64,000 bases of DNA from IMG/VR virus record IMGVR_UViG_3300033076_001012, positions 25,028 through 89,027 of that record. One strand, written 5' to 3'. The DNA comes from a virus. Taxonomy: Duplodnaviria; Caudoviricetes. The notes beneath the pieces were generated by a model. It was not told the DNA's origin. It made no database searches and was given only the letters and a program-made list of their open reading frames with translations. The translations under genes and the position numbers were made by a program. Shown one piece after another: positions 308 to 61,458 of this stretch (the first letter of the stretch is position 1; the number at the start of each line of letters is the position of its first letter).

Positions 308-739
308 TTAACCTAATATTTCATTATAATCATTTATAAATCTATTTGCAATTATTTCAGCTGAATTTTCTTTTTTAAAGCAAAAACCCACCGAACAGAA
401 AGAACCGTAAGTCTGATCATCCACATAGCCGAAAGCCCAAACTGAGCCTTTTTTTTCAAACCAAGGATAATATTTAAAACTATTAGTATTAAAATATGGA
501 ATCCATTCTTTATAATCGTTATCAATAAAATTTACAGCTTTTATGATAGTAATAATTTCTAATAGTTTATCATTATAAAATCCTTTAGGATTTGGATTAA
601 CATTATAATCTTCTAATAATTTTTTAGCTGATTCATAGTTTATATTATTAACAGTTAATTTATTAGATGTTTGTCTTGAAATTTCATTCAATTGTTGTTG
701 TGTTAGAGTTATCGAAACTCCATTAATGTCTATTTTCAT
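308..739 (-). CDS. DGR-target family paralog 4 (orphan, VR-like C-terminus)
   Basis: Shares TIIKAVNFIDN..KEW.P.F....KY.P.F and GF.FK....A.I...F...Y with 57013..57441; segment 377..448 has only 7 A in 72 nt on the coding strand. Confidence 0.85.
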   Translation of the reverse strand: MKIDINGVSITLTQQQLNEISRQTSNKLTVNNINYESAKKLLEDYNVNPNPKGFYNDKLLEIITIIKAVNFIDNDYKEWIPYFNTNSFKYYPWFEKKGSVWAFGYVDDQTYGSFCSVGFCFKKENSAEIIANRFINDYNEILG

Positions 740-8293: not shown

Positions 8294-8809
8294 ATGGAAC
8301 CTCTTGAACTAAAAGATAATCTTGTAGTTTTTAAACCTGAGTTTTTGACTATATCAGCTTTCAAAAAAGTATGGGAAACTGATAAGTCAAAGACTAAGGA
8401 TAAAGCCTTTAAAGATTTAATGTATGTATATCACATGGCTTCAAAGAAGTCGATATATAGTGATTGGCCGGAAGATAAAAAAGAAGAAGCTATACTTCAA
8501 GATGTTCTTTTAGATAAAAACTATAAACCTTCAAAAGAAGTAAAAGAAGCAATTCTTAAATTCGAAGAATTTAGTACACCAAAGCAAAGATTATTAGAAG
8601 CAGCTAAAGCTAAAATAGATGATATTGCAGTATTTTTAAAAAATACACCTCTTACAGTAGAAACATCTGATTCAATTCTTGCTATGTTTAAATCTATATC
8701 TACAACAGTTAAAAACTTTGATGATATAGAAGCAGCTGTTAAAAAAGAAACAGATACACATAATGTTAAAAGACGTGGTGATAAAGCCACAGGATTATTT
8801 GAAGAATGA
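8294..8809 (+). CDS. putative terminase small subunit
   Basis: Helical protein immediately upstream of and overlapping terL (ATGA); assignment by position. Confidence 0.5.
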   Translation: MEPLELKDNLVVFKPEFLTISAFKKVWETDKSKTKDKAFKDLMYVYHMASKKSIYSDWPEDKKEEAILQDVLLDKNYKPSKEVKEAILKFEEFSTPKQRLLEAAKAKIDDIAVFLKNTPLTVETSDSILAMFKSISTTVKNFDDIEAAVKKETDTHNVKRRGDKATGLFEE

Positions 8810-10782
8810 AACTTGTAGGTACAGATAAATTCAGAGAAGAAGCATTAAAGTTTCAGAAAGATGGTATATACTGTAAATATACCACAGGTACTCATGCACA
8901 TCGTGAGTATTGGATGGAGCAACATAAAAGATGTTTGGAAGGTTACCATAATGGAGAATTTTGGATACCTGGAACATATTATTTTTATTTAAACTTCTCA
9001 CCAATTCTTGCAAAGAATGAAAAAACTGGACGTAAGCAACAAGAGTTTGCAAGATTTACTGATGTAGATTTAGAATACTTTAATATAGTTGAAAGAGCAC
9101 GTAAAGAAAAAAAAGGTATAATTCTTCTTAAACCAAGACGTACAGGTTTTTCATTTAAAAATTCAAGACTTGCTGTACATGAATATAATTTTTACAGAGA
9201 TGCTAAATGTATAATAGCAGCATCTAACTCCGAACTATCTAAATATACCATGAACATGGCTTTAGACGGTTTAAACTTTTTAGATAAACATACTGAATGG
9301 CGTAAACAAAGAGATCCTGATACAAAAGATTTTGTAAAAGCAAGATATAAAGAAACAAAAGATGGAGTAACTACATGGAAAGGTAACCATTCAGAAATTT
9401 TCACACTCACTTTTAAAGACAACCCATTTGCTGCAATTGGTAAATCAGCTAATTTATTCTTTTGGGAAGAAGCTGGAAAGTTTTCAAATCTTATAAGTTC
9501 TTATAATATATCTGAACCTTGTTGGAAAGATGGTGATGATATGATAGGTATTCCACTTGTTTACGGAACAGGAGGAGATATGTCTGTAGGTACAAAAGAT
9601 TTTGCTGAAATGTTTTATCATCCTGAAAAATATAATCTTCTAGCTTTTGATAATATATGGGAAGAAGAAAAGGTAGGAACTAAATGCGGATGGTTTATAC
9701 CGGCAACCAGAATGAGATTTGGTGAATATAAAGGTGAATCAATGGTTGATAAGGACGGAAACTCTAATCAAGAGTTAGCCTTAAAATCCATTCTTGATTT
9801 TAGAGAATTAAAGAAAAGAGGAGGTTCTAAACAAGATTATCAAGATGCACTAACTCAATATCCAATCCATCCTGGAGAAGCCTTTCTTCAAAAGACAGGA
9901 AACATGTTTCCAACTGCTGATCTATCAGCAAGGTTGGCCAAATTACAAACAGACACCTCAATAACAGGTGCTGATTATATAGGAGATTTAGTTCTTACAG
10001 AAGATGGTAAAGTAGAATGGAAACTGAACACTAAACTAAAACCTATAAACAACTATCCAACTGATAAAGAAGATAGTTCAGAAGGATGTGTAGTAATCTT
10101 TGAACATCCTTATATTGATGAAGTTGGACAAACACCTTATGGTAGATATTTAGTTGGAGTTGACCCGTATGCTCAAGATAAATCTGAAAACTCTTCTTCT
10201 CTAGGTTCAACTTTAGTTTATGACAAAGTAACTAATAGACTTGTAGCTGAATATACAGCTAGACCAGCTACAATGAATGATTATTATGAAAATGTAAGAA
10301 GACTTATAAAATATTATAACGGTATATGCTTATATGAAAATCAGATACCTGGATTATTTCAATATCTTCATAATAAAAACGAATCTTATCTTTTAATGGA
10401 CCAACCTGAATATATAAAAGATATTATACAAGATTCTAAAGTTAATAGACAAAAGGGTATACACATGACAGCAGGTATTAAAGCTCACGGAGAAGATTTG
10501 ATAAATGCTTGGTTACGTTCACCTTATGAATCAGATAATGACATATTAACACTTCATAAAATACGTTCTATACCTCTTCTTCAAGAACTAATATCCTATC
10601 ATCCTGATGGAAACTTCGATAGAATAATTGCTCTAATAATGTTAATGTATGCTATACAACAACTTAAAAAACATAGAATAGAAGAAGCTTCTGAAAAGAA
10701 TGATGATATTTTTTCACAAAAATTTTTCCAAAAACCTATAATAAGAAAACATAATAATGCTATAAGATCAAATCCATTTTAA
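8806..10782 (+). CDS. terL: terminase large subunit
   Basis: Walker A-like LKPRRTGFS, Walker B LFFWEEAGK, nuclease VGVDPY and terminal FDRIIA. Confidence 0.95.
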   Translation: MKLVGTDKFREEALKFQKDGIYCKYTTGTHAHREYWMEQHKRCLEGYHNGEFWIPGTYYFYLNFSPILAKNEKTGRKQQEFARFTDVDLEYFNIVERARKEKKGIILLKPRRTGFSFKNSRLAVHEYNFYRDAKCIIAASNSELSKYTMNMALDGLNFLDKHTEWRKQRDPDTKDFVKARYKETKDGVTTWKGNHSEIFTLTFKDNPFAAIGKSANLFFWEEAGKFSNLISSYNISEPCWKDGDDMIGIPLVYGTGGDMSVGTKDFAEMFYHPEKYNLLAFDNIWEEEKVGTKCGWFIPATRMRFGEYKGESMVDKDGNSNQELALKSILDFRELKKRGGSKQDYQDALTQYPIHPGEAFLQKTGNMFPTADLSARLAKLQTDTSITGADYIGDLVLTEDGKVEWKLNTKLKPINNYPTDKEDSSEGCVVIFEHPYIDEVGQTPYGRYLVGVDPYAQDKSENSSSLGSTLVYDKVTNRLVAEYTARPATMNDYYENVRRLIKYYNGICLYENQIPGLFQYLHNKNESYLLMDQPEYIKDIIQDSKVNRQKGIHMTAGIKAHGEDLINAWLRSPYESDNDILTLHKIRSIPLLQELISYHPDGNFDRIIALIMLMYAIQQLKKHRIEEASEKNDDIFSQKFFQKPIIRKHNNAIRSNPF

Positions 10783-23982: not shown

Positions 23983-25746
23983 ATGGCTGGTAAAAAAATA
24001 CATCAATTAGCAGAAACTACTTCATTGGATAGCAATGACAGAATACCTCTTGATAGATTTGGTACTGATAGTGAGTGGGGAAACTATTATATAAAAGCTT
24101 CTAATTTAGTTGGTACAATCAGTGGAAGTGGTACAGCTAATAAGCTAGTTAAATGGAACACTTCTTCAACACTTACAAATAGTGGTTTTTTAGCTGAAAG
24201 CGTTAATGGTATATCATTAACAACAGGTTACTTAGCTGTTGGAGATACAGTATCTGCAACTAACAGTTTATTGATAAAAGCTGTTGTAGCAAATACAAAC
24301 ATTGCTGACTTTAAAAAAACAGATGGTACATCTATAACAACAATATCTAACTCTGGATTTGTTGGTATAAATAAATCAACTCCATCTGCAACATTACATA
24401 TTAAATCTACAGGTACAACAATTCTACAAGTAGAAGAAAGTACTTCATCTATTTTAATGATGAAAATACATAATACAGGAGCTATTTCTTTAGGTAGAGG
24501 AGGAGCAGCTACAGGAGATGAAAGTATAGCTTTAGGCTATGGTACAACTGCTACTAATAGTAGTACTGTACTAGGATCATCTTCTTCAGGAACAGGAACG
24601 TATGCAGTAGTTATAGGAGCAGGTTGTAATACAGCTGTTAGAGCAACAGTTGTAGGTAGTTCTTCATCTGCATCAGGAGGATACGCTGTTGCTTTAGGTC
24701 AGGAAAATACAGCGAGTGGCGTAGGAGCATATGCTATGGGTTATTTAGCTACATCAAGTGCTGACTATGCATATGCTTTAGGTACTCAAACAACTTCTTC
24801 TCATGCACATTCCTATGCTATTGGAAGAGGAGCTACGACAGGAGCAACTAATCAAATAATATTAGGAAGCAGTGCTTCTTATGTTTATAAAGTAGGCATA
24901 AATACAAATACTACAGATGCAAATCTACATATAAAAACTACAGATAATAGTTCATCTTCAAAAGCTATATTGATTAAGAATTTAGCAGGTAATACATTAT
25001 TTGTACAAAACAATGATGGAAGTTTTGCCATAGGTAAGTCAGCTTCTAATTACAATAGTAGATCTGTAACAATAGGTGAAAGTGCGACAACTACACATCA
25101 GGAAAGCGTTGCGCTCGGTGCGCTATCTTCAGCAGGTTTATATACAGTTGCTTTAGGTGATCAAGCAGTTGGACTATCAAACTGTGTAGTTATTGGTAAA
25201 AACGCAACTACATCATCAAATGATGCAATTTCTATTGGAGGAGGTAGTACAGTAAATGGTTTAAGTTCTTATGTATTTGGAGTTAATAATACAATTAACG
25301 GTTCATACATAACTTGTTTAGGTTATAGCAATACATATACAGGAGGAGGCTCTGGAGAACCAACGTTTCTTTATGGTGAAAGTAGTAGATTTTTTATTGA
25401 AAATGTAAGAAATGGAATAGATAGAGAATTTAAATTACGATCTGTTACTTCAGATGGTACAACAACTTTAAAAAATTCTGCTATATTATTACTTTCTTCA
25501 TATTATAGTGGAAGTGCGAATGACTATGAATGTAATATAAAACATGAATTATTAACAACTTCACCAACAAGTATGTTAAATATATCATTTGGTGGAACAT
25601 CAAGATTTAAGTTTTATAGTAGTGGAAAAGCAAACTTCTCTAACTTACAAATTGGCAATGCAGGATTATCAACAGGTGACTTATATCAAGATACGGCAGC
25701 TAATATTTTAGCAGCTGGAGATAAAATAGTTGCGATTAAAGTTTAA
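23983..25746 (+). CDS. tail fibre/adhesin with YadA-head-like repeats
   Basis: ~14-aa repeats of type A.ALG..A.A....S.V.G. Confidence 0.75.
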   Translation: MAGKKIHQLAETTSLDSNDRIPLDRFGTDSEWGNYYIKASNLVGTISGSGTANKLVKWNTSSTLTNSGFLAESVNGISLTTGYLAVGDTVSATNSLLIKAVVANTNIADFKKTDGTSITTISNSGFVGINKSTPSATLHIKSTGTTILQVEESTSSILMMKIHNTGAISLGRGGAATGDESIALGYGTTATNSSTVLGSSSSGTGTYAVVIGAGCNTAVRATVVGSSSSASGGYAVALGQENTASGVGAYAMGYLATSSADYAYALGTQTTSSHAHSYAIGRGATTGATNQIILGSSASYVYKVGINTNTTDANLHIKTTDNSSSSKAILIKNLAGNTLFVQNNDGSFAIGKSASNYNSRSVTIGESATTTHQESVALGALSSAGLYTVALGDQAVGLSNCVVIGKNATTSSNDAISIGGGSTVNGLSSYVFGVNNTINGSYITCLGYSNTYTGGGSGEPTFLYGESSRFFIENVRNGIDREFKLRSVTSDGTTTLKNSAILLLSSYYSGSANDYECNIKHELLTTSPTSMLNISFGGTSRFKFYSSGKANFSNLQIGNAGLSTGDLYQDTAANILAAGDKIVAIKV

Positions 25747-56254: not shown

Positions 56255-56336
56255 TAATAAGTACATTCACTGTTCCAATTCAGATTGTAATAGTTAGAAG
56301 AATTATAAACTAACTCACTACTAGAACTAATAGAAA
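56255..56336 (-). repeat. DGR template repeat TR3
   Basis: 82-nt match to 56444..56525; 19 mismatches, all at TR adenines. Confidence 0.95.
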
Positions 56337-56364
56337 GTTGTAATATTTAACCTACTAAGAACAA

Positions 56365-56766
56365 CTAATAATTGTTATCTCTTAGATTTTGATACTCTTT
56401 AATAAAATTCTCGCCAACAAAAGTAGCTATTTCAGAAGTTTTATAAAAAGCACATCCACCGACCCAACACAGAAAGAAATAGCCAGAAGAAATATAAACC
56501 AACCCACCACCAGAACCAATAGAAAAATGCGGAAAATATTTATATTCATTAGTATTTTTCCAATTTGGTTTCCATCCTTGATTAAAATATTTTTCAATTT
56601 GTTTAATTACTCTATAAGGACAACTAAATTGAGGTTCATTTAATCTCCTGCAAACTTCTTTATATGTAGTGCAAGTAAATATATCTTCACCATTTATAAT
56701 ATCTTTTAAGGCATCTACTTCTTTTTGTAGATCATTTAATTTATCTTGTGCTTGTTTTTTATTCAT
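56365..56766 (-). CDS. DGR target protein 3
   Basis: N-terminal coiled coil, W.PNW.N...YKY.P.F, VR3 near the C-terminus. Confidence 0.92.
   Translation of the reverse strand: MNKKQAQDKLNDLQKEVDALKDIINGEDIFTCTTYKEVCRRLNEPQFSCPYRVIKQIEKYFNQGWKPNWKNTNEYKYFPHFSIGSGGGLVYISSGYFFLCWVGGCAFYKTSEIATFVGENFIKEYQNLRDNNY
56444..56525 (-). repeat. DGR variable repeat VR3
   Basis: Encodes SIGSGGGLVYISSGYFFLCWVGGCAF; differs from TR3 only at adenines. Confidence 0.95.
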
Positions 56767-56789
56767 AATATTTGAGTTTGTTTACTATT

Positions 56790-56819
56790 AGCACATCTTA
56801 TAGAGATATAAGATGTGCT
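56790..56819. terminator. perfect 13-bp hairpin between cassettes 2 and 3
   Basis: AGCACATCTTATA-GAGA-TATAAGATGTGCT; function unclear. Confidence 0.45.
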
Positions 56820-56829
56820 TTAGTTTAGT

Positions 56830-56897
56830 TAATTCTGTTCAGCATTTAAGTTACTAAGAATATTGTTTTTATTGTTATCTTTTAGCAATAGCTAAGG
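56830..56897 (-). ncRNA. DGR spacer 2 (structured RNA downstream of TR2)
   Basis: TTAGC-TATT-GCTAA hairpin, then ATTCT-TAGTA...GAAC-AGAAT. Confidence 0.7.
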
Positions 56898-56914
56898 ATG
56901 TATACTATATATAA

Positions 56915-56986
56915 ATAGTAAAAACTAAGTGGATAGTTAGAGTTAGAATAATAGTTATTCACGTAATTCAAAGACTACCTATACTT
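56915..56986 (-). repeat. DGR template repeat TR2
   Basis: 72-nt match to 57085..57156; 18 mismatches, all at TR adenines. Confidence 0.95.
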
Positions 56987-57012
56987 TAGTTATAATATAC
57001 TATCCTACTAGT

Positions 57013-57441
57013 TTATTCTTCTAGCCAAGAATTATATAAAGTTAAAAATTGTTTAGCTATATACTCAGCAGATTTTTTATTTTTAAAGTAAAAACCAAGC
57101 GGAAAGATAGAGAAAGAATAATAGCCACCCACGCAATACAAAGACCACCCAGACCGTTTATTAAATTCAAAATATGGAATATATTTGTATTCATTATAAT
57201 TACCAAAATTGGGTTTCCATTCTTTGTTTTCATTATCAATAAAATTAACAGCTTTGATAATAGTTTTTAATTGTTCACTAAAAGAAGTAATGTTATAAAA
57301 TTCTATCCCTAATACTTTACAAGCATCTCTTAAACTTTTAATATCCTCTACTTTATATTCAGGAGCATTTATTATTTCTTTTAACTTATCGACTTCATAT
57401 TGTAAATCCTGTAATTTCTTTTGGGCTTCTGTTTTATTCAT
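57013..57441 (-). CDS. DGR target protein 2 (start MNKTEAQKK at 57441)
   Basis: ATG 4 nt after the RT stop; paralog of targets 1 and 3; VR2. Confidence 0.92.
   Translation of the reverse strand: MNKTEAQKKLQDLQYEVDKLKEIINAPEYKVEDIKSLRDACKVLGIEFYNITSFSEQLKTIIKAVNFIDNENKEWKPNFGNYNEYKYIPYFEFNKRSGWSLYCVGGYYSFSIFPLGFYFKNKKSAEYIAKQFLTLYNSWLEE
57085..57156 (-). repeat. DGR variable repeat VR2
   Basis: Encodes RSGWSLYCVGGYYSFSIFPLGFYF; differs from TR2 only at adenines. Confidence 0.95.
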
Positions 57442-57445
57442 AAAT

Positions 57446-58387
57446 TTATGTTTTAATATATTTGTTTTTAAGATTGATACCGTTACAATGATTAATCCAG
57501 CCATTATAACTAGCAATAGATTTATTATTCTTATTATATTTAATCATTTTAATGAAATTCTTTTTAATTGTTTTTCTAAGTTTAATATGTGTAGAATAAC
57601 TCACATAACCAACAAAATCTATTCCTCTATTTTTGATGGGAAATATTTGATAATTACTTAATTCTAATTTTAGATTATACCAAAGATAATTTTTTATATT
57701 ATTTAATATAATTCTTAATTCATTCTTATCATTACCTAATATAACTATATCATCGCAATATCTAAAATATTTAAGTTTTAATTCTTCTTTAATCCAATGA
57801 TCAAAATAAGTTAGATAAAAATTAGCAAAGAATTGTGAACAATAATTACCTATTGGTAAACCAACATTACTATCTATTATTTCAAATATTAAATTAAGTA
57901 AATTTCTATCTTTAAATTTTCTTAATAACAATTTTTTTAATATTTCATTATTAATAGAAGGATAGAATTTCTTTATATCTAATTTCAAACAGTATTCATA
58001 ATTTTTAACATCCTTATTTAAATCTTTTAAACAAAGATGTATACCTCTCTTTTTAATACATGAATAAGTTTGTTTTATAAAACATTTTAAAAATATAGGT
58101 TCTAATATATTTAATATTGCATGATGACATATCCTATCAGGATAATAAGGAAGTCTATATATTTCTCTTATTTTACCTTTTTCTTTAACTTTAAAAATAG
58201 TATAATTAGAGGTTTTATAAGATTTATTTAATAAAACATGATGTAAATTAATTAAAAGATCTTCTTTATTTCTATCAAATTTCCTTACACCATGTTGTTT
58301 AGACTTACCCTTTCTTGCCTTTTTTTCAGCTAATTTAATATTACCAATGCTACAAACTTGTTGATATAGATTACCTACTCTTTTCAT
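57446..58387 (-). CDS. DGR reverse transcriptase (313 aa from MKRVGNLY)
   Basis: LPYYPDRICHHAI, LKLDIKKFYPSI, GLPIGNYCSQ (DGR-type GxxxSQ), YFRYCDD, GIDFVGY. Confidence 0.96.
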   Translation of the reverse strand: MKRVGNLYQQVCSIGNIKLAEKKARKGKSKQHGVRKFDRNKEDLLINLHHVLLNKSYKTSNYTIFKVKEKGKIREIYRLPYYPDRICHHAILNILEPIFLKCFIKQTYSCIKKRGIHLCLKDLNKDVKNYEYCLKLDIKKFYPSINNEILKKLLLRKFKDRNLLNLIFEIIDSNVGLPIGNYCSQFFANFYLTYFDHWIKEELKLKYFRYCDDIVILGNDKNELRIILNNIKNYLWYNLKLELSNYQIFPIKNRGIDFVGYVSYSTHIKLRKTIKKNFIKMIKYNKNNKSIASYNGWINHCNGINLKNKYIKT

Positions 58388-58394
58388 AGTCTTT

Positions 58395-58470
58395 ACAATT
58401 AACACTTTTTCCACAATTAAGGTACTAAAGTATTTGTAAATATTCTGTTGTTTTTTGGCAATAGCCAAAG
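58395..58470 (-). ncRNA. DGR spacer 1 (structured RNA between TR1 and RT)
   Basis: TTGGC-TATT-GCCAA hairpin, then AATACT-TTAGTA...GAAAA-AGTGTT. Confidence 0.7.
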
Positions 58471-58498
58471 TTAATAATAGATTTATAAAGTAAAGAAA

Positions 58499-58564
58499 AG
58501 TAGACTCATTTGAATTAGAATTCCAGTTATTATCATAATGGAAAGACTAACTAGAGCTAGAATT
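58499..58564 (-). repeat. DGR template repeat TR1
   Basis: 66-nt match to 58659..58724; 15 mismatches, all at TR adenines; begins inside the target-1 stop codon. Confidence 0.95.
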
Positions 58565-59027
58565 AATTATTAACTTGATAAGAAAAATAATCTATATAAA
58601 TATGATTAAACTTTTTACAAGCATCTTGTAATAAATTATCTGCTTTAAAATGTTGACAAGCAGACCCACGTGAACTAGAAGTCCAGCCACTACCACAATG
58701 GAAAGACCAACCAGAGCCAGAACTAAATTTATAATAAGGTATATACTTATATATACTTGAATTATTCCAATCTAAAATAGTTTTTTCATTATAAGCTTGT
58801 ACTATTTTAGGGATAAGAGAACACGCATTTAAATATCTTTCTCTTTTATTTTTAGTATTTAAAGGAAAAATAATATAATCATTTATATCTTCTTCTAATA
58901 CATCAAAAACATCTTCTAAAGTTTGAATTCTATCTATTATATCTTCAGGAGAATTTATAATTTTTTCAAGTTTATCAATTTCTTTTTGTAAATTTTTTAT
59001 TTGCTTTTTAGCTTCTTCTTTTTTCAT
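58563..59027 (-). CDS. DGR target protein 1
   Basis: MKKEEAKKQIKNLQKEIDKLEKIIN N-terminus, DWNN...YKY.PY, VR1. Confidence 0.92.
   Translation of the reverse strand: MKKEEAKKQIKNLQKEIDKLEKIINSPEDIIDRIQTLEDVFDVLEEDINDYIIFPLNTKNKRERYLNACSLIPKIVQAYNEKTILDWNNSSIYKYIPYYKFSSGSGWSFHCGSGWTSSSRGSACQHFKADNLLQDACKKFNHIYIDYFSYQVNN
58659..58724 (-). repeat. DGR variable repeat VR1
   Basis: Encodes SSGSGWSFHCGSGWTSSSRGSA; differs from TR1 only at adenines. Confidence 0.95.
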
Positions 59028-59061: not shown

Positions 59062-59460
59062 TTAATAATTTATTACTTTAGCAAAACCTTCCTTTACAAG
59101 TTGTTCATTTAAACAAATTTCTTGACCTTTTGAATCAATATAGTATATTTTAGCTAAATATCTACCATATTTTTCTCTAATATCCTGAAAGGATTCTACC
59201 TTAATTTGAGAATTAAGTGGTATAATCTCAGCAACTTTTAATCTTATAGAAAATCCTTGTTTTTTGGAAGAACCTTTTATTTCAGGAGTATTTATTCCAA
59301 ATAACCTGAACACTTGTAAAACATATGTTTTAAAACCTAAATCTACTAATATCTCAAGAGTATCTCCATCTATAATTTGAGATATACTACATCCTTCATA
59401 AATTCTGGGTCTTTTAGGATGAATAGGAAAAGTAATGTTTTTATCAATTTTTTTACTCAT
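59062..59460 (-). CDS. thermonuclease (SNase-like) family protein
   Basis: IIDGDT...VDLGF......RL.GINTPE...EKYGRYLA.IY...LNE.LVKEG.A. Confidence 0.9.
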   Translation of the reverse strand: MSKKIDKNITFPIHPKRPRIYEGCSISQIIDGDTLEILVDLGFKTYVLQVFRLFGINTPEIKGSSKKQGFSIRLKVAEIIPLNSQIKVESFQDIREKYGRYLAKIYYIDSKGQEICLNEQLVKEGFAKVINY

Positions 59461-60963: not shown

Positions 60964-61458
60964 CTAACTTAAAACAATATTTTTTCTTATTTTTTTAACT
61001 GTATCATTTATGGATTGTTTTGAACAATTCATTTCCTTAGCTATTTCACTTTGATTATAGCCGTCCATTATTTTATAATAGACGTTTTTTTGATGATTTG
61101 TTAATTTATCTATATTAAATCCTAAACAGTTATACTCAGGAGTATAATAATACTTATCCGAATCAACATCTATATAATAAGTATTTCTATACATTCTTCC
61201 AGAATTTTGTCTCTTATCATATCTTCTTTTATAAGTCTGCCACAAATTTATTCTAAGATGTGCAAATAATTGATTATATGATTCATATTCAGGTTTTTTA
61301 CTAATTCTTTTATTGTATATAATATATGTATCATGTAACATATCTTCAGCCAATGGAATATTCACATATCCTTTATTATCCAATCTAGATAAATTTATTG
61401 AATATTGCATTAATTTTGGCATATACTTTATAAAATCTTCATTTTTAGCAACTATCAT
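60964..61458 (-). CDS. sigma-70/ECF-like transcription factor
   Basis: AEDMLHDTY (region-2-like) and C-terminal HTH (GYNQSEIAKEMNCSKQSI). Confidence 0.7.
   Translation of the reverse strand: MIVAKNEDFIKYMPKLMQYSINLSRLDNKGYVNIPLAEDMLHDTYIIYNKRISKKPEYESYNQLFAHLRINLWQTYKRRYDKRQNSGRMYRNTYYIDVDSDKYYYTPEYNCLGFNIDKLTNHQKNVYYKIMDGYNQSEIAKEMNCSKQSINDTVKKIRKNIVLS

What the first reader, a model, noticed from the sequence alone, without database searches (positions are those of the whole stretch)
56365..59027. DGR targets are small non-virion-type paralogs rather than receptor-binding fibres
Seen: 133-154 aa proteins with an N-terminal coiled coil (MxKxxAxxxLxxLQxExDxLxxIIN), a W.P.W/F.N...YKY.P.F motif, the VR and a closing helix. 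They have no signal peptide or TM and lie on the strand carrying nucleases and a sigma-like factor. I found no TR match in the fibre genes at 22-27.7 kb. Established: characterised phage DGRs diversify tail-fibre or adhesin domains, often with a CLec fold. Inference: hypervariable intracellular binders, for example anti-defence or host-takeover proteins, oligomerised through the coiled coil.
Basis: partly seen in the sequence, partly recalled or inferred. Interest (0 to 1): 0.8.

Follow-up and report, generated by a model that had tools for sequence, protein, structure and literature searches.

The report
Small early-gene DGR targets in crAss-like phage
A divergent crAss-like phage uses its mutagenic retroelement to rewrite three small paralogous proteins encoded among its early DNA-metabolism genes instead of a tail fibre; this protein family and this kind of non-structural target have been reported before, and what the proteins bind is still unknown.

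Summary
On the minus strand at 56255-59027 one reverse transcriptase is flanked by three 133-154 aa paralogs. Each has its own variable repeat and its own template repeat just downstream, and the mismatches fall almost only on template adenines. No other variable repeat exists in the 89-kb genome, so no fibre gene is targeted.

The proteins are not orphans. They belong to a large uncharacterised phage family (2,288 cluster representatives). In 50 of 51 RT-bearing related viral loci, that family is the DGR target. It matches cluster PC_00007 ("Phage_other", non-structural/unknown) of Roux et al. 2021 and the distal second target of LoVEphage/Quimbyvirus (Benler et al. 2021).

In 53 non-redundant loci the commonest neighbouring families are recombination, replication and methylase genes, with no tail family among them. 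A high-confidence AlphaFold model (pLDDT 95.9) matches no solved structure, so a C-type lectin fold is not shown.

The reading as intracellular binders or counter-defence proteins is plausible and already published, but untested. Oligomerisation through a coiled coil is not shown. This scan has noted similar small early-region DGR targets in other genomes.

Verdict: new member of a known kind, moderate interest.

The parts
58563..59027 (-). Target gene T1 (154 aa), small variable protein
   Evidence: ORF; member of the family profile; an ortholog (P0002) lies in a related phage fragment, L098
58646..58726 (-). VR1, codons about 101-128 of T1 (relative midpoint 0.74)
   Evidence: 81-nt repeat with TR1; 15 of 20 mismatches at template adenines
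58486..58566 (-). TR1, overlapping the T1 stop codon and running into the gap before the RT gene
   Evidence: it matches only VR1 in the genome
57446..58390 (-). DGR reverse transcriptase (314 aa from the ATG at 58390), with GNYCSQ (GxxxSQ) and YCDD motifs
   Evidence: RVT_1 2.2e-17; PHROG 1423 2.5e-105; motifs read from the translation; 52-62% identical to the RTs beside the same target family elsewhere; 46% identical to the crAssphage LMMB RT
57013..57441 (-). Target gene T2 (142 aa)
   Evidence: AlphaFold model at pLDDT 95.9; no ortholog in the relative L098
57078..57160 (-). VR2, residues about 95-122 of T2: the hairpin turn, the second strand and the following loop of the model
   Evidence: 19 of 24 mismatches at template adenines; frame and residues; secondary structure
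56908..56990 (-). TR2, downstream of T2
56365..56766 (-). Target gene T3 (133 aa)
   Evidence: an ortholog with its own TR lies directly after the RT in L098
56444..56527 (-). VR3, residues about 81-108 of T3
   Evidence: 20 of 21 mismatches at template adenines
56255..56338 (-). TR3, downstream of T3
308..739 (-). Fourth paralog (143 aa), not diversified: no TR anywhere in the genome, and a different N-terminus
   Evidence: search of the phage's own genome, E 4.1e-16, 49% identity to T2 over residues 48-139; translation; no TR-like partner
59062..59460 (-). SNase-type nuclease directly upstream of T1 (context)
   Evidence: Pfam SNase 1.5e-08; PHROG 452 1e-25
60964..61458 (-). Sigma-factor-like protein on the same strand (context)
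   Evidence: PHROG 1740 6.3e-08

Best explanation
Shown: these are the three variable-protein genes of an Avd-less DGR in a divergent crAss-like phage, and the DGR is intact or was active recently. They belong to a large uncharacterised phage family: PC_00007 of Roux et al. 2021, and the distal target of LoVEphage/Quimbyvirus.

The core of the family is an alpha/beta domain of about 110 residues. It has two helices, a beta-hairpin, a loop and a C-terminal helical pair. Many members add an N-terminal amphipathic helix.

Shown for the repeats, and inferred for the mechanism from established DGR biology: the RT copies each template repeat with errors at adenines. The cDNA then replaces the matching variable repeat. 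This rewrites roughly a dozen codons in the hairpin turn, the second strand and the following loop, while the scaffold stays constant.

Inferred: the genes lack export signals and always sit among early recombination, replication and DNA-modification genes. The products are therefore most likely soluble cytoplasmic binding proteins made early in infection. Their variable patch would be retuned to changing host or rival-element proteins (counter-defence or host takeover). In this phage there are three such binders, each with its own template.
For: DGR anatomy:
- TR/VR pairs with adenine-specific mismatches.
- Each TR is specific to its own VR, and no other VR exists in the genome.
- The RT is intact, with GxxxSQ and YxDD motifs.

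Family:
- 2,288 representatives at E<=1e-3, mostly 130-190 aa, with no Pfam family.
- 71 IMG/VR loci were found. 51 have an RT 52-62% identical directly downstream, and 50 of those 51 have adenine-biased TR-to-VR pairs in the same part of the protein.
- 53 of the 71 loci hold 2-3 paralogs.

Identity with published clusters:
- PC_00007 sequences printed in the Roux supplement carry the same motifs.
- Their VR midpoint is 0.72-0.77, against 0.71-0.76 here.
- Of 611 PC_00007 members, 97.55% were predicted as 'Other' by PhANNs.
- hhalign to the LoVEphage protein gives 98.7% probability, E 2e-16.

Non-structural context:
- Upstream neighbours are a metal-dependent hydrolase, SbcC, RecT, recombinase, primase and sigma factor.
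- Downstream neighbours are DNA polymerase, helicases and methyltransferases.
- Searches show the same kind of context.

Other points:
- No TM segment or signal-like N-terminus.
- Model at pLDDT 95.9 with the VR on the hairpin and loop.
- A related phage fragment keeps T1+TR1, the RT and T3+TR3.
- The counter-defence reading was proposed.
Against: - No experiment or proteome bears on where the protein is located.
- Gene position is weak evidence. Decoration or accessory virion proteins can be encoded outside the structural block.
- In LoVEphage-type phages a family member shares one TR with a lectin-fold tail protein. The same variable peptide therefore works on a virion protein too.
- The N-terminal heptad helix could dock onto a fibre.
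- A 2026 cohort study found no DGR that targets a known anti-defence protein.
- Divergence from the one relative found is too high to show ongoing DGR activity. Nucleotide differences are 25-29% in the VR against 16-19% outside it.
Confidence: 0.55

Rival explanations
1. The proteins are minimal virion-associated adhesins. They are made from the early-region operon but dock through the N-terminal helix onto a fibre, collar or capsid. There the variable patch binds host surface glycans, as Mtd does on BPP-1.
For: - The only experimentally studied phage DGR diversifies a receptor-binding protein (established knowledge; stated).
- Some family members share a TR with a lectin-fold tail protein: PC_00002 plus PC_00007 under one RT, and the two Quimbyvirus VRs.
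- The N-terminal helix has an a/d heptad pattern typical of docking or oligomerising helices.
- The phage Versailles member is annotated 'tail protein' by its depositors.
Against: - No tail or head family is among the 25 commonest neighbour families on either side in 53 loci.
- 97.55% of PC_00007 members were classed as non-structural by PhANNs.
- The N-terminal helix is missing or replaced in many members, including the fourth paralog here.
- Here the genes converge on the structural block from the opposite strand, at the end of the strand that carries the nuclease, polymerase-exonuclease and sigma-factor genes.
Confidence: 0.25
2. The cassettes are relics. The DGR no longer works and the three genes are simply fast-evolving early accessory genes whose TR-like copies are decaying.
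For: - 5 of 20 (T1) and 5 of 24 (T2) mismatches are not at adenines.
- No Avd gene is present, and the conserved small gene that follows the RT in most related cassettes (PHROG 19665) is absent from this genome.
Against: - The non-adenine mismatches lie at the repeat ends. The cores differ only at adenines.
- T3 has 20 of 21 mismatches at adenines.
- The RT reading frame and its catalytic motifs are intact.
- All three TRs are kept, and two of them are conserved in position in the relative L098.
Confidence: 0.12
3. The proteins are reduced C-type lectin domains. They would then be ordinary CLec-type DGR targets stripped of their N-terminal anchoring domains, with no new scaffold.
For: - Benler et al. 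describe the Quimbyvirus distal target as containing a C-type lectin domain, and that protein is homologous to this family.
- Family members end the VR with a G-S/F-R-L-like motif, like the end of CLec VRs.
- Roux et al. expected uncharacterised VR domains to be new CLec variants.
Against: - No CLec-type Pfam family such as FGE-sulfatase, DUF1566 or DUF6273 was hit in any member tested.
- hhalign to a crAss-like CLec tail-collar fibre gives 0.3% probability.
- The window's proteins lack the 25-35 residue segment that carries the 'LVLWGG' part in the LoVEphage member.
Confidence: 0.3

Closest known systems
PC_00007 ('Phage_other') DGR target cluster of Roux et al. 2021 (Nat Commun 12:3076, PMC8144416, Supplementary Note 8 and Data 5)
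   Same: - Same sequence family: the printed members share the DW-N--YKY, SGW and F-K---A------F--IY motifs.
- Same size range.
- VR midpoint at 0.72-0.77 of the protein.
- Adjacent primary and secondary paralogs next to an RT.
- Hosts in Bacteroidota/FCB.
- Judged non-structural/unknown.
   Different: - Here the host genome is a divergent crAss-like phage.
- The RT sits between the targets.
- Each of the three targets has its own TR. The usual layout is one TR serving 2-3 tandem paralogs.
Distal second DGR target of Quimbyvirus / LoVEphage (Benler et al. 2021, PMC8008677; also the four double-VR prophages in PMC12629997)
   Same: - Homologous protein (hhalign 98.7%, E 2e-16).
- Encoded among methyltransferase, nuclease and tRNA-ligase genes, away from the structural genes.
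- The same counter-defence hypothesis.
   Different: - The LoVEphage protein is 194 aa, with an extra segment before the VR.
- It shares its TR with a tail-module target and lies far from the RT.
- The window's DGR has no tail target at all, and its targets are adjacent to the RT.
Bordetella phage BPP-1 DGR (mtd-avd-TR-brt) and the other CLec variable proteins (TvpA, TaqVP)
   Same: Adenine-specific TR-to-VR mutagenesis by a GxxxSQ-type RT. A variable surface patch sits on a constant scaffold near the C-terminus.
   Different: - No Avd gene.
- The targets are about 140 aa, not 380 aa trimeric fibre-tip proteins.
- The VR is followed by about 25 coding residues, not by the stop codon.
- No CLec fold was detectable.
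- The genes lie among early genes rather than tail genes.
DGRs of crAss-like phages (crAssphage LMMB, PMC7290462; Epsilon, PMC11054128; Zeta/Lera with three TR-VR pairs, PMC12386605)
   Same: Crassvirales-type genome. Apart from Lera and ct1yV3, these DGRs also lack Avd. The RTs are related (46% identity to LMMB). A three-pair DGR has a precedent in Lera.
   Different: Those DGRs target tail-collar fibre, tail-fibre or receptor-binding proteins with CLec domains. This one targets only the small early-region family. Non-diversified members of that family occur in Suoliviridae phages cr115_1 and cr53_1.
Small DUF6273-only targets nd4_tgt2 / nd12_tgt2 (Tentaclins paper, PMC10743442)
   Same: A single small globular domain flanked by N- and C-terminal helices, with the VR forming a surface beta-hairpin.

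Membership tests
DGR variable (target) protein | A VR in the coding sequence paired with a nearby TR, differing almost only at template adenines | tested here: met
   15 of 20, 19 of 24 and 20 of 21 mismatches are at TR adenines; the other mismatches lie at the repeat ends
DGR variable (target) protein | An adjacent DGR-type reverse transcriptase with GxxxSQ and YxDD motifs | tested here: met
   RVT_1 and PHROG 1423 hits; GNYCSQ and YCDD in the translation
DGR variable (target) protein | IMH/IMH* elements and a hairpin 3' of the VR | not tested
   The 3' ends of VR and TR diverge, but no IMH or hairpin analysis was done here. The region after each VR is coding.
DGR variable (target) protein | Avd accessory gene (present in many DGRs, not all) | tested here: not met
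   No Avd-like hit among the ORFs scanned beside the cassette. The PHROG 19665 gene that follows the RT in related cassettes is absent from the genome.
PC_00007 / LoVEphage-type non-structural DGR target family | Sequence homology to published members | tested here: met
   hhalign of the family profile to the LoVEphage 194-aa protein: 98.7%, E 2e-16. The motifs are shared with the PC_00007 sequences printed in the Roux supplement.
PC_00007 / LoVEphage-type non-structural DGR target family | VR centred at about 0.72-0.77 of the protein and followed by a C-terminal helix | tested here: met
   VR midpoints of 0.74, 0.76 and 0.71, from the coordinates; helices at 122-141 in the model
PC_00007 / LoVEphage-type non-structural DGR target family | Encoded among early / DNA-metabolism genes, not tail genes | tested here: met
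   Window context; neighbour tallies over 53 loci
C-type lectin fold DGR targets (Mtd, TvpA, TaqVP) | Structural similarity of the VR-bearing domain to the CLec fold | tested here: inconclusive
C-type lectin fold DGR targets (Mtd, TvpA, TaqVP) | A sequence match to a CLec-type Pfam family (FGE-sulfatase, DUF1566, DUF6273) | tested here: not met
   No such hit in the three targets at E<=0.1, in 147 family members at E<=0.01, or in 10 longer members at E<=10
Phage tail fibre / receptor-binding protein | Location in the structural module, or a match to a tail or fibre family | tested here: not met
   The genes lie on the opposite strand from the structural block. The only PHROG hit is a weak one to family 11581 of unknown function.
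Phage tail fibre / receptor-binding protein | Presence in the virion | not testable with these tools
   Needs virion mass spectrometry or cryo-EM of a cultured relative

The most novel reading that the evidence does not exclude
The family is a second scaffold for DGR hypervariation, unrelated to the C-type lectin fold, and it works inside the infected cell. The phage would carry three independently templated, self-diversifying binders that neutralise variable host defence proteins or proteins of rival mobile elements. This would be a phage-encoded, antibody-like counter-defence repertoire.
Probability: 0.2. Interest if true: 0.85.

Novelty: new member of a known kind. Interest (0 to 1): 0.45.

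Why it matters
Almost everything known about what phage DGRs do comes from receptor-binding proteins. A large family (more than 2,000 cluster representatives) of small proteins that look cytoplasmic and are encoded among early genes is hypermutated just as systematically. Nobody knows what they bind.

This phage is a clean case. Its DGR has no tail target, so whatever advantage the DGR gives must come through these proteins.

If they prove to be adaptive intracellular binders, that would add a new layer to phage-host conflict. It would also provide a compact (about 110-residue) natural scaffold for directed evolution.

If they prove to be virion parts, they would be the smallest known DGR-tuned adhesins.

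Tried and rejected
- **Pfam:** no family for the three targets, for 147 family members or for 10 longer members.
- **PDB sequence search with the family profile:** only chance coiled-coil hits, best E-value 0.25.
- **First AlphaFold run:** with only the four paralogs as alignment it gave a useless model (pLDDT 46.6).
- **Fold searches of the good model:** no CLec or other convincing match by Foldseek or VIA-align against the PDB. BFVD returned only uncharacterised phage proteins.
- **ESM Atlas:** only hypothetical viral clusters.
- **hhalign to the crAssphage LMMB tail-collar fibre:** 0.3% probability.
- **TR for the fourth paralog:** none found.
- **Homolog of the conserved post-RT gene (PHROG 19665) in this genome:** none found.
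- **Comparison with the one close relative (L098):** it is too diverged to prove current DGR activity.
- **Coordinate problems:** two comparisons with cr7_1 genes failed because the annotated coordinates gave stop codons.

Readings rejected:
- The ORFs are not fragments of a larger broken target. The family has this length everywhere and folds confidently.
- They are not Avd. They carry the VRs.
Full report
**1. What is there**

The minus strand between 56255 and 59027 holds, in order of transcription:
- a 154-aa ORF (T1, 58563-59027);
- a reverse transcriptase gene (57446-58390);
- a 142-aa ORF (T2, 57013-57441, counted from the ATG that aligns with the paralogs);
- a 133-aa ORF (T3, 56365-56766).

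The RT matches Pfam RVT_1 (2.2e-17) and PHROG 1423 (2.5e-105). Its translation shows the GxxxSQ motif (GNYCSQ) and YCDD.

The three small proteins are 28-35% identical.

Each gene contains an 81-84 nt repeat whose second copy lies directly downstream of that gene. In these pairs 15 of 20, 19 of 24 and 20 of 21 mismatches fall on adenines of the downstream copy. The remaining mismatches sit at the repeat ends. These are three TR/VR pairs served by one RT.

I scanned the window and the whole 89,027-base genome with each TR, ignoring its adenines. Each TR found only its own VR. No gene of the structural block carries a VR.

The three targets have no hydrophobic N-terminus or TM segment. The same strand carries an SNase-type nuclease, a DNA polymerase exonuclease subunit, a sigma-factor-like protein and a 5'-3' exonuclease. 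The plus strand carries portal and major head protein genes.

**2. The phage**

The window is bases 25028-89027 of an 89-kb virus record estimated at 94% complete. The large ORF at 8806-10782, whose matches are annotated as terminase large subunits, is 38-40% identical to those of Crassvirales phages. The genome has the crAss-like two-arm layout. It is a divergent crAss-like phage.

**3. The family**

A profile of the paralogs found 2,288 cluster representatives at E<=1e-3 and 837 at E<=1e-10. Most are 130-190 aa, and a few are tandem fusions of about 300 aa. None of 147 members has a Pfam family.

In IMG/VR the family was found at 71 loci:
- 53 of them hold two or three paralogs, in most cases adjacent to one another.
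- 51 have an RT 52-62% identical to the window's RT directly downstream.
- In 50 of those 51, an adenine-biased TR lies between the last paralog and the RT and matches a VR in the same part of each paralog.

The usual layout is therefore 2-3 tandem targets, one TR, then the RT. Two loci, L060 and L070, have the RT flanked by targets as here, and L060 has two TRs.

A related phage fragment (L098), syntenic with the window, keeps a T1 ortholog with its TR, the RT, and a T3 ortholog with its TR, but has no T2. T2 is most similar to a fourth paralog at window 308-739. That paralog has a different N-terminus and no TR anywhere in the genome.

Non-diversified members also occur in the early regions of Suoliviridae crAss-like phages cr115_1 and cr53_1, and in a roughly 100-kb phage. 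Among bacterial genomes, 13 of the 15 hits are in Bacteroidota; the other two are an Ignavibacteria MAG and a Clostridia MAG.

**4. It is a published family**

The supplement of Roux et al. 2021 lists two viral target clusters judged non-structural/unknown. For PC_00007, PhANNs called 97.55% of 611 members 'Other'. PC_00007 sequences printed in that supplement show the same motifs and sizes. They occur as adjacent primary and secondary targets next to an RT, and their VR midpoint is at 0.72-0.77 of the protein. The window's values are 0.74, 0.76 and 0.71.

The family profile aligns with the 194-aa hypothetical protein of LoVEphage at 98.7% probability, E 2e-16. That gene sits among methyltransferase, DUF2400 and RtcB ligase genes. 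This matches the neighbourhood that Benler et al. 2021 describe for the distal, non-structural second DGR target of Quimbyvirus, which they link to counter-defence.

A 2025 Nature paper on gut temperate phages reports four more prophage species with a distal second VR near counter-defence genes.

Earlier notes of this scan describe similar small early-region DGR targets in other genomes. I used them only as leads to these papers, which I then read.

**5. Context**

I took the three nearest ORFs on each side of the cassette in 53 non-redundant IMG/VR loci and scanned them against PHROGs.
- **Upstream:** the annotated families are a metal-dependent hydrolase, SbcC-like nuclease, recombinase, RecT, primase, exonuclease, sigma factor and transcriptional regulator.
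- **Downstream:** DNA polymerase, helicases, DNA-binding protein, DNA methyltransferases, nucleoside deoxyribosyltransferase and MazG. A 99-aa protein of unknown function (PHROG 19665) follows the RT in 23 loci.

No tail or head family is among the 25 commonest families on either side. The window fits this pattern. PHROG 19665 has no homolog in this genome.

**6. Fold**

With a 147-sequence alignment AlphaFold gave pLDDT 95.9 and pTM 0.85 for T2. The model has:
- helix 3-25;
- helices 37-44 and 54-69;
- a hairpin of strands 86-94 and 98-107;
- a loop at 108-120;
- helices 122-141.

The VR encodes residues about 95-122, that is the hairpin turn, the second strand and the loop. The template's Asn-rich codons lie there.

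A C-type lectin fold is therefore not shown, but it cannot be excluded. Benler et al. call the Quimbyvirus homolog a CLec protein. In some prophages a family member shares its TR with a CLec tail protein. Many members end the VR with a G-S/F-R-L motif like the end of CLec VRs. The window's proteins lack the extra 25-35 residues that the LoVEphage member has before the VR.

**7. How it most likely works**

- **Shown:** the anatomy of three TR/VR pairs with one intact RT, membership of a family that is a DGR target in 50 of 51 RT-bearing loci, a constant scaffold with the variable codons on one hairpin-loop region, the lack of export signals, and the early-gene context.
- **Inferred from established DGR biology:** adenine-mutagenic reverse transcription of each TR, and replacement of the cognate VR.
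- **Inferred from context only:** the proteins are soluble cytoplasmic binders made early, whose specificity is retuned against variable host or rival-element proteins.

I put this reading at about 0.55. The virion-adhesin rival gets about 0.25 and a decayed system about 0.12. Whether the domain is a reduced CLec is a separate question, which I put at about 0.3.

The N-terminal helix has hydrophobic residues at 6, 10, 13, 17, 20 and 24, an a/d heptad pattern. This is compatible with a short coiled coil. It is equally compatible with a helix that packs on the domain, and many members lack it, so oligomerisation is not shown.

**8. Novelty**

The kind is known: a small, apparently non-structural phage DGR target of this very family. 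The counter-defence idea is published. The following were not found in the papers I read:
- this family as a DGR target in a crAss-like phage, where reported DGRs hit tail-fibre or receptor-binding proteins;
- a DGR with no tail target but three such targets;
- one TR per target;
- a confident model without a PDB counterpart.

I classify it as a new member of a known kind. Interest is moderate because the function of the whole family remains an open and testable question.

Noticed in passing
window 308-739 (-): A fourth paralog of the target family (143 aa, 49% identical to T2 over residues 48-139). It has a different N-terminus and no TR anywhere in the genome. T2 is closer to it than to T1, and the relative L098 lacks T2, so T2 with TR2 may be a recent addition.
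   Followed up: partly
L006 198-290 (-) = G000:C1 24041-24133, just upstream of the window: A 93-nt tRNA (Rfam tRNA, 35.2 bits) for which ARAGORN reports a four-base anticodon (gagg) and no amino-acid identity.
   Followed up: partly
L006 about 300-1440 = G000:C1 about 24143-25283 (window up to about 256): A stretch of about 1.1 kb between the odd tRNA and the fourth paralog. By eye it has no long ORF and a higher G+C content. It has no Rfam match at E<=0.01.
   Followed up: partly
L008:7776-8075, L012:1977-2276, L014:1685-1981 and about 20 more related loci: A conserved protein of about 99 aa (PHROG 19665, unknown function) follows the RT directly in 23 of the related cassettes. It is a candidate accessory factor in place of Avd. 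It has no homolog in this genome.
   Followed up: partly
window 57442-57516 (-): Gene callers extend T2 upstream into the 3' end of the RT gene, giving the 163-aa P0152 or a 167-aa ORF from a TTG. This would add a hydrophobic N-terminal segment. The paralog alignment argues for the ATG at 57441, so the extension is probably an artefact.
   Followed up: partly
window 58549-58551 (TR1) and 56975-56977 (TR2): Read in the frame of their VRs, TR1 and TR2 have a TAG stop where the VR has a Trp codon. An unmutated copy would therefore truncate the target.
   Followed up: no
L081 5431-5895 and L082 4085-4549 (crAss-like phages cr115_1 and cr53_1): The 154-aa gene annotated 'shock protein B', directly after the family member in both phages, may be a second paralog. 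T1 itself gives a weak PspB hit through its N-terminal helix. This was not tested.
   Followed up: no
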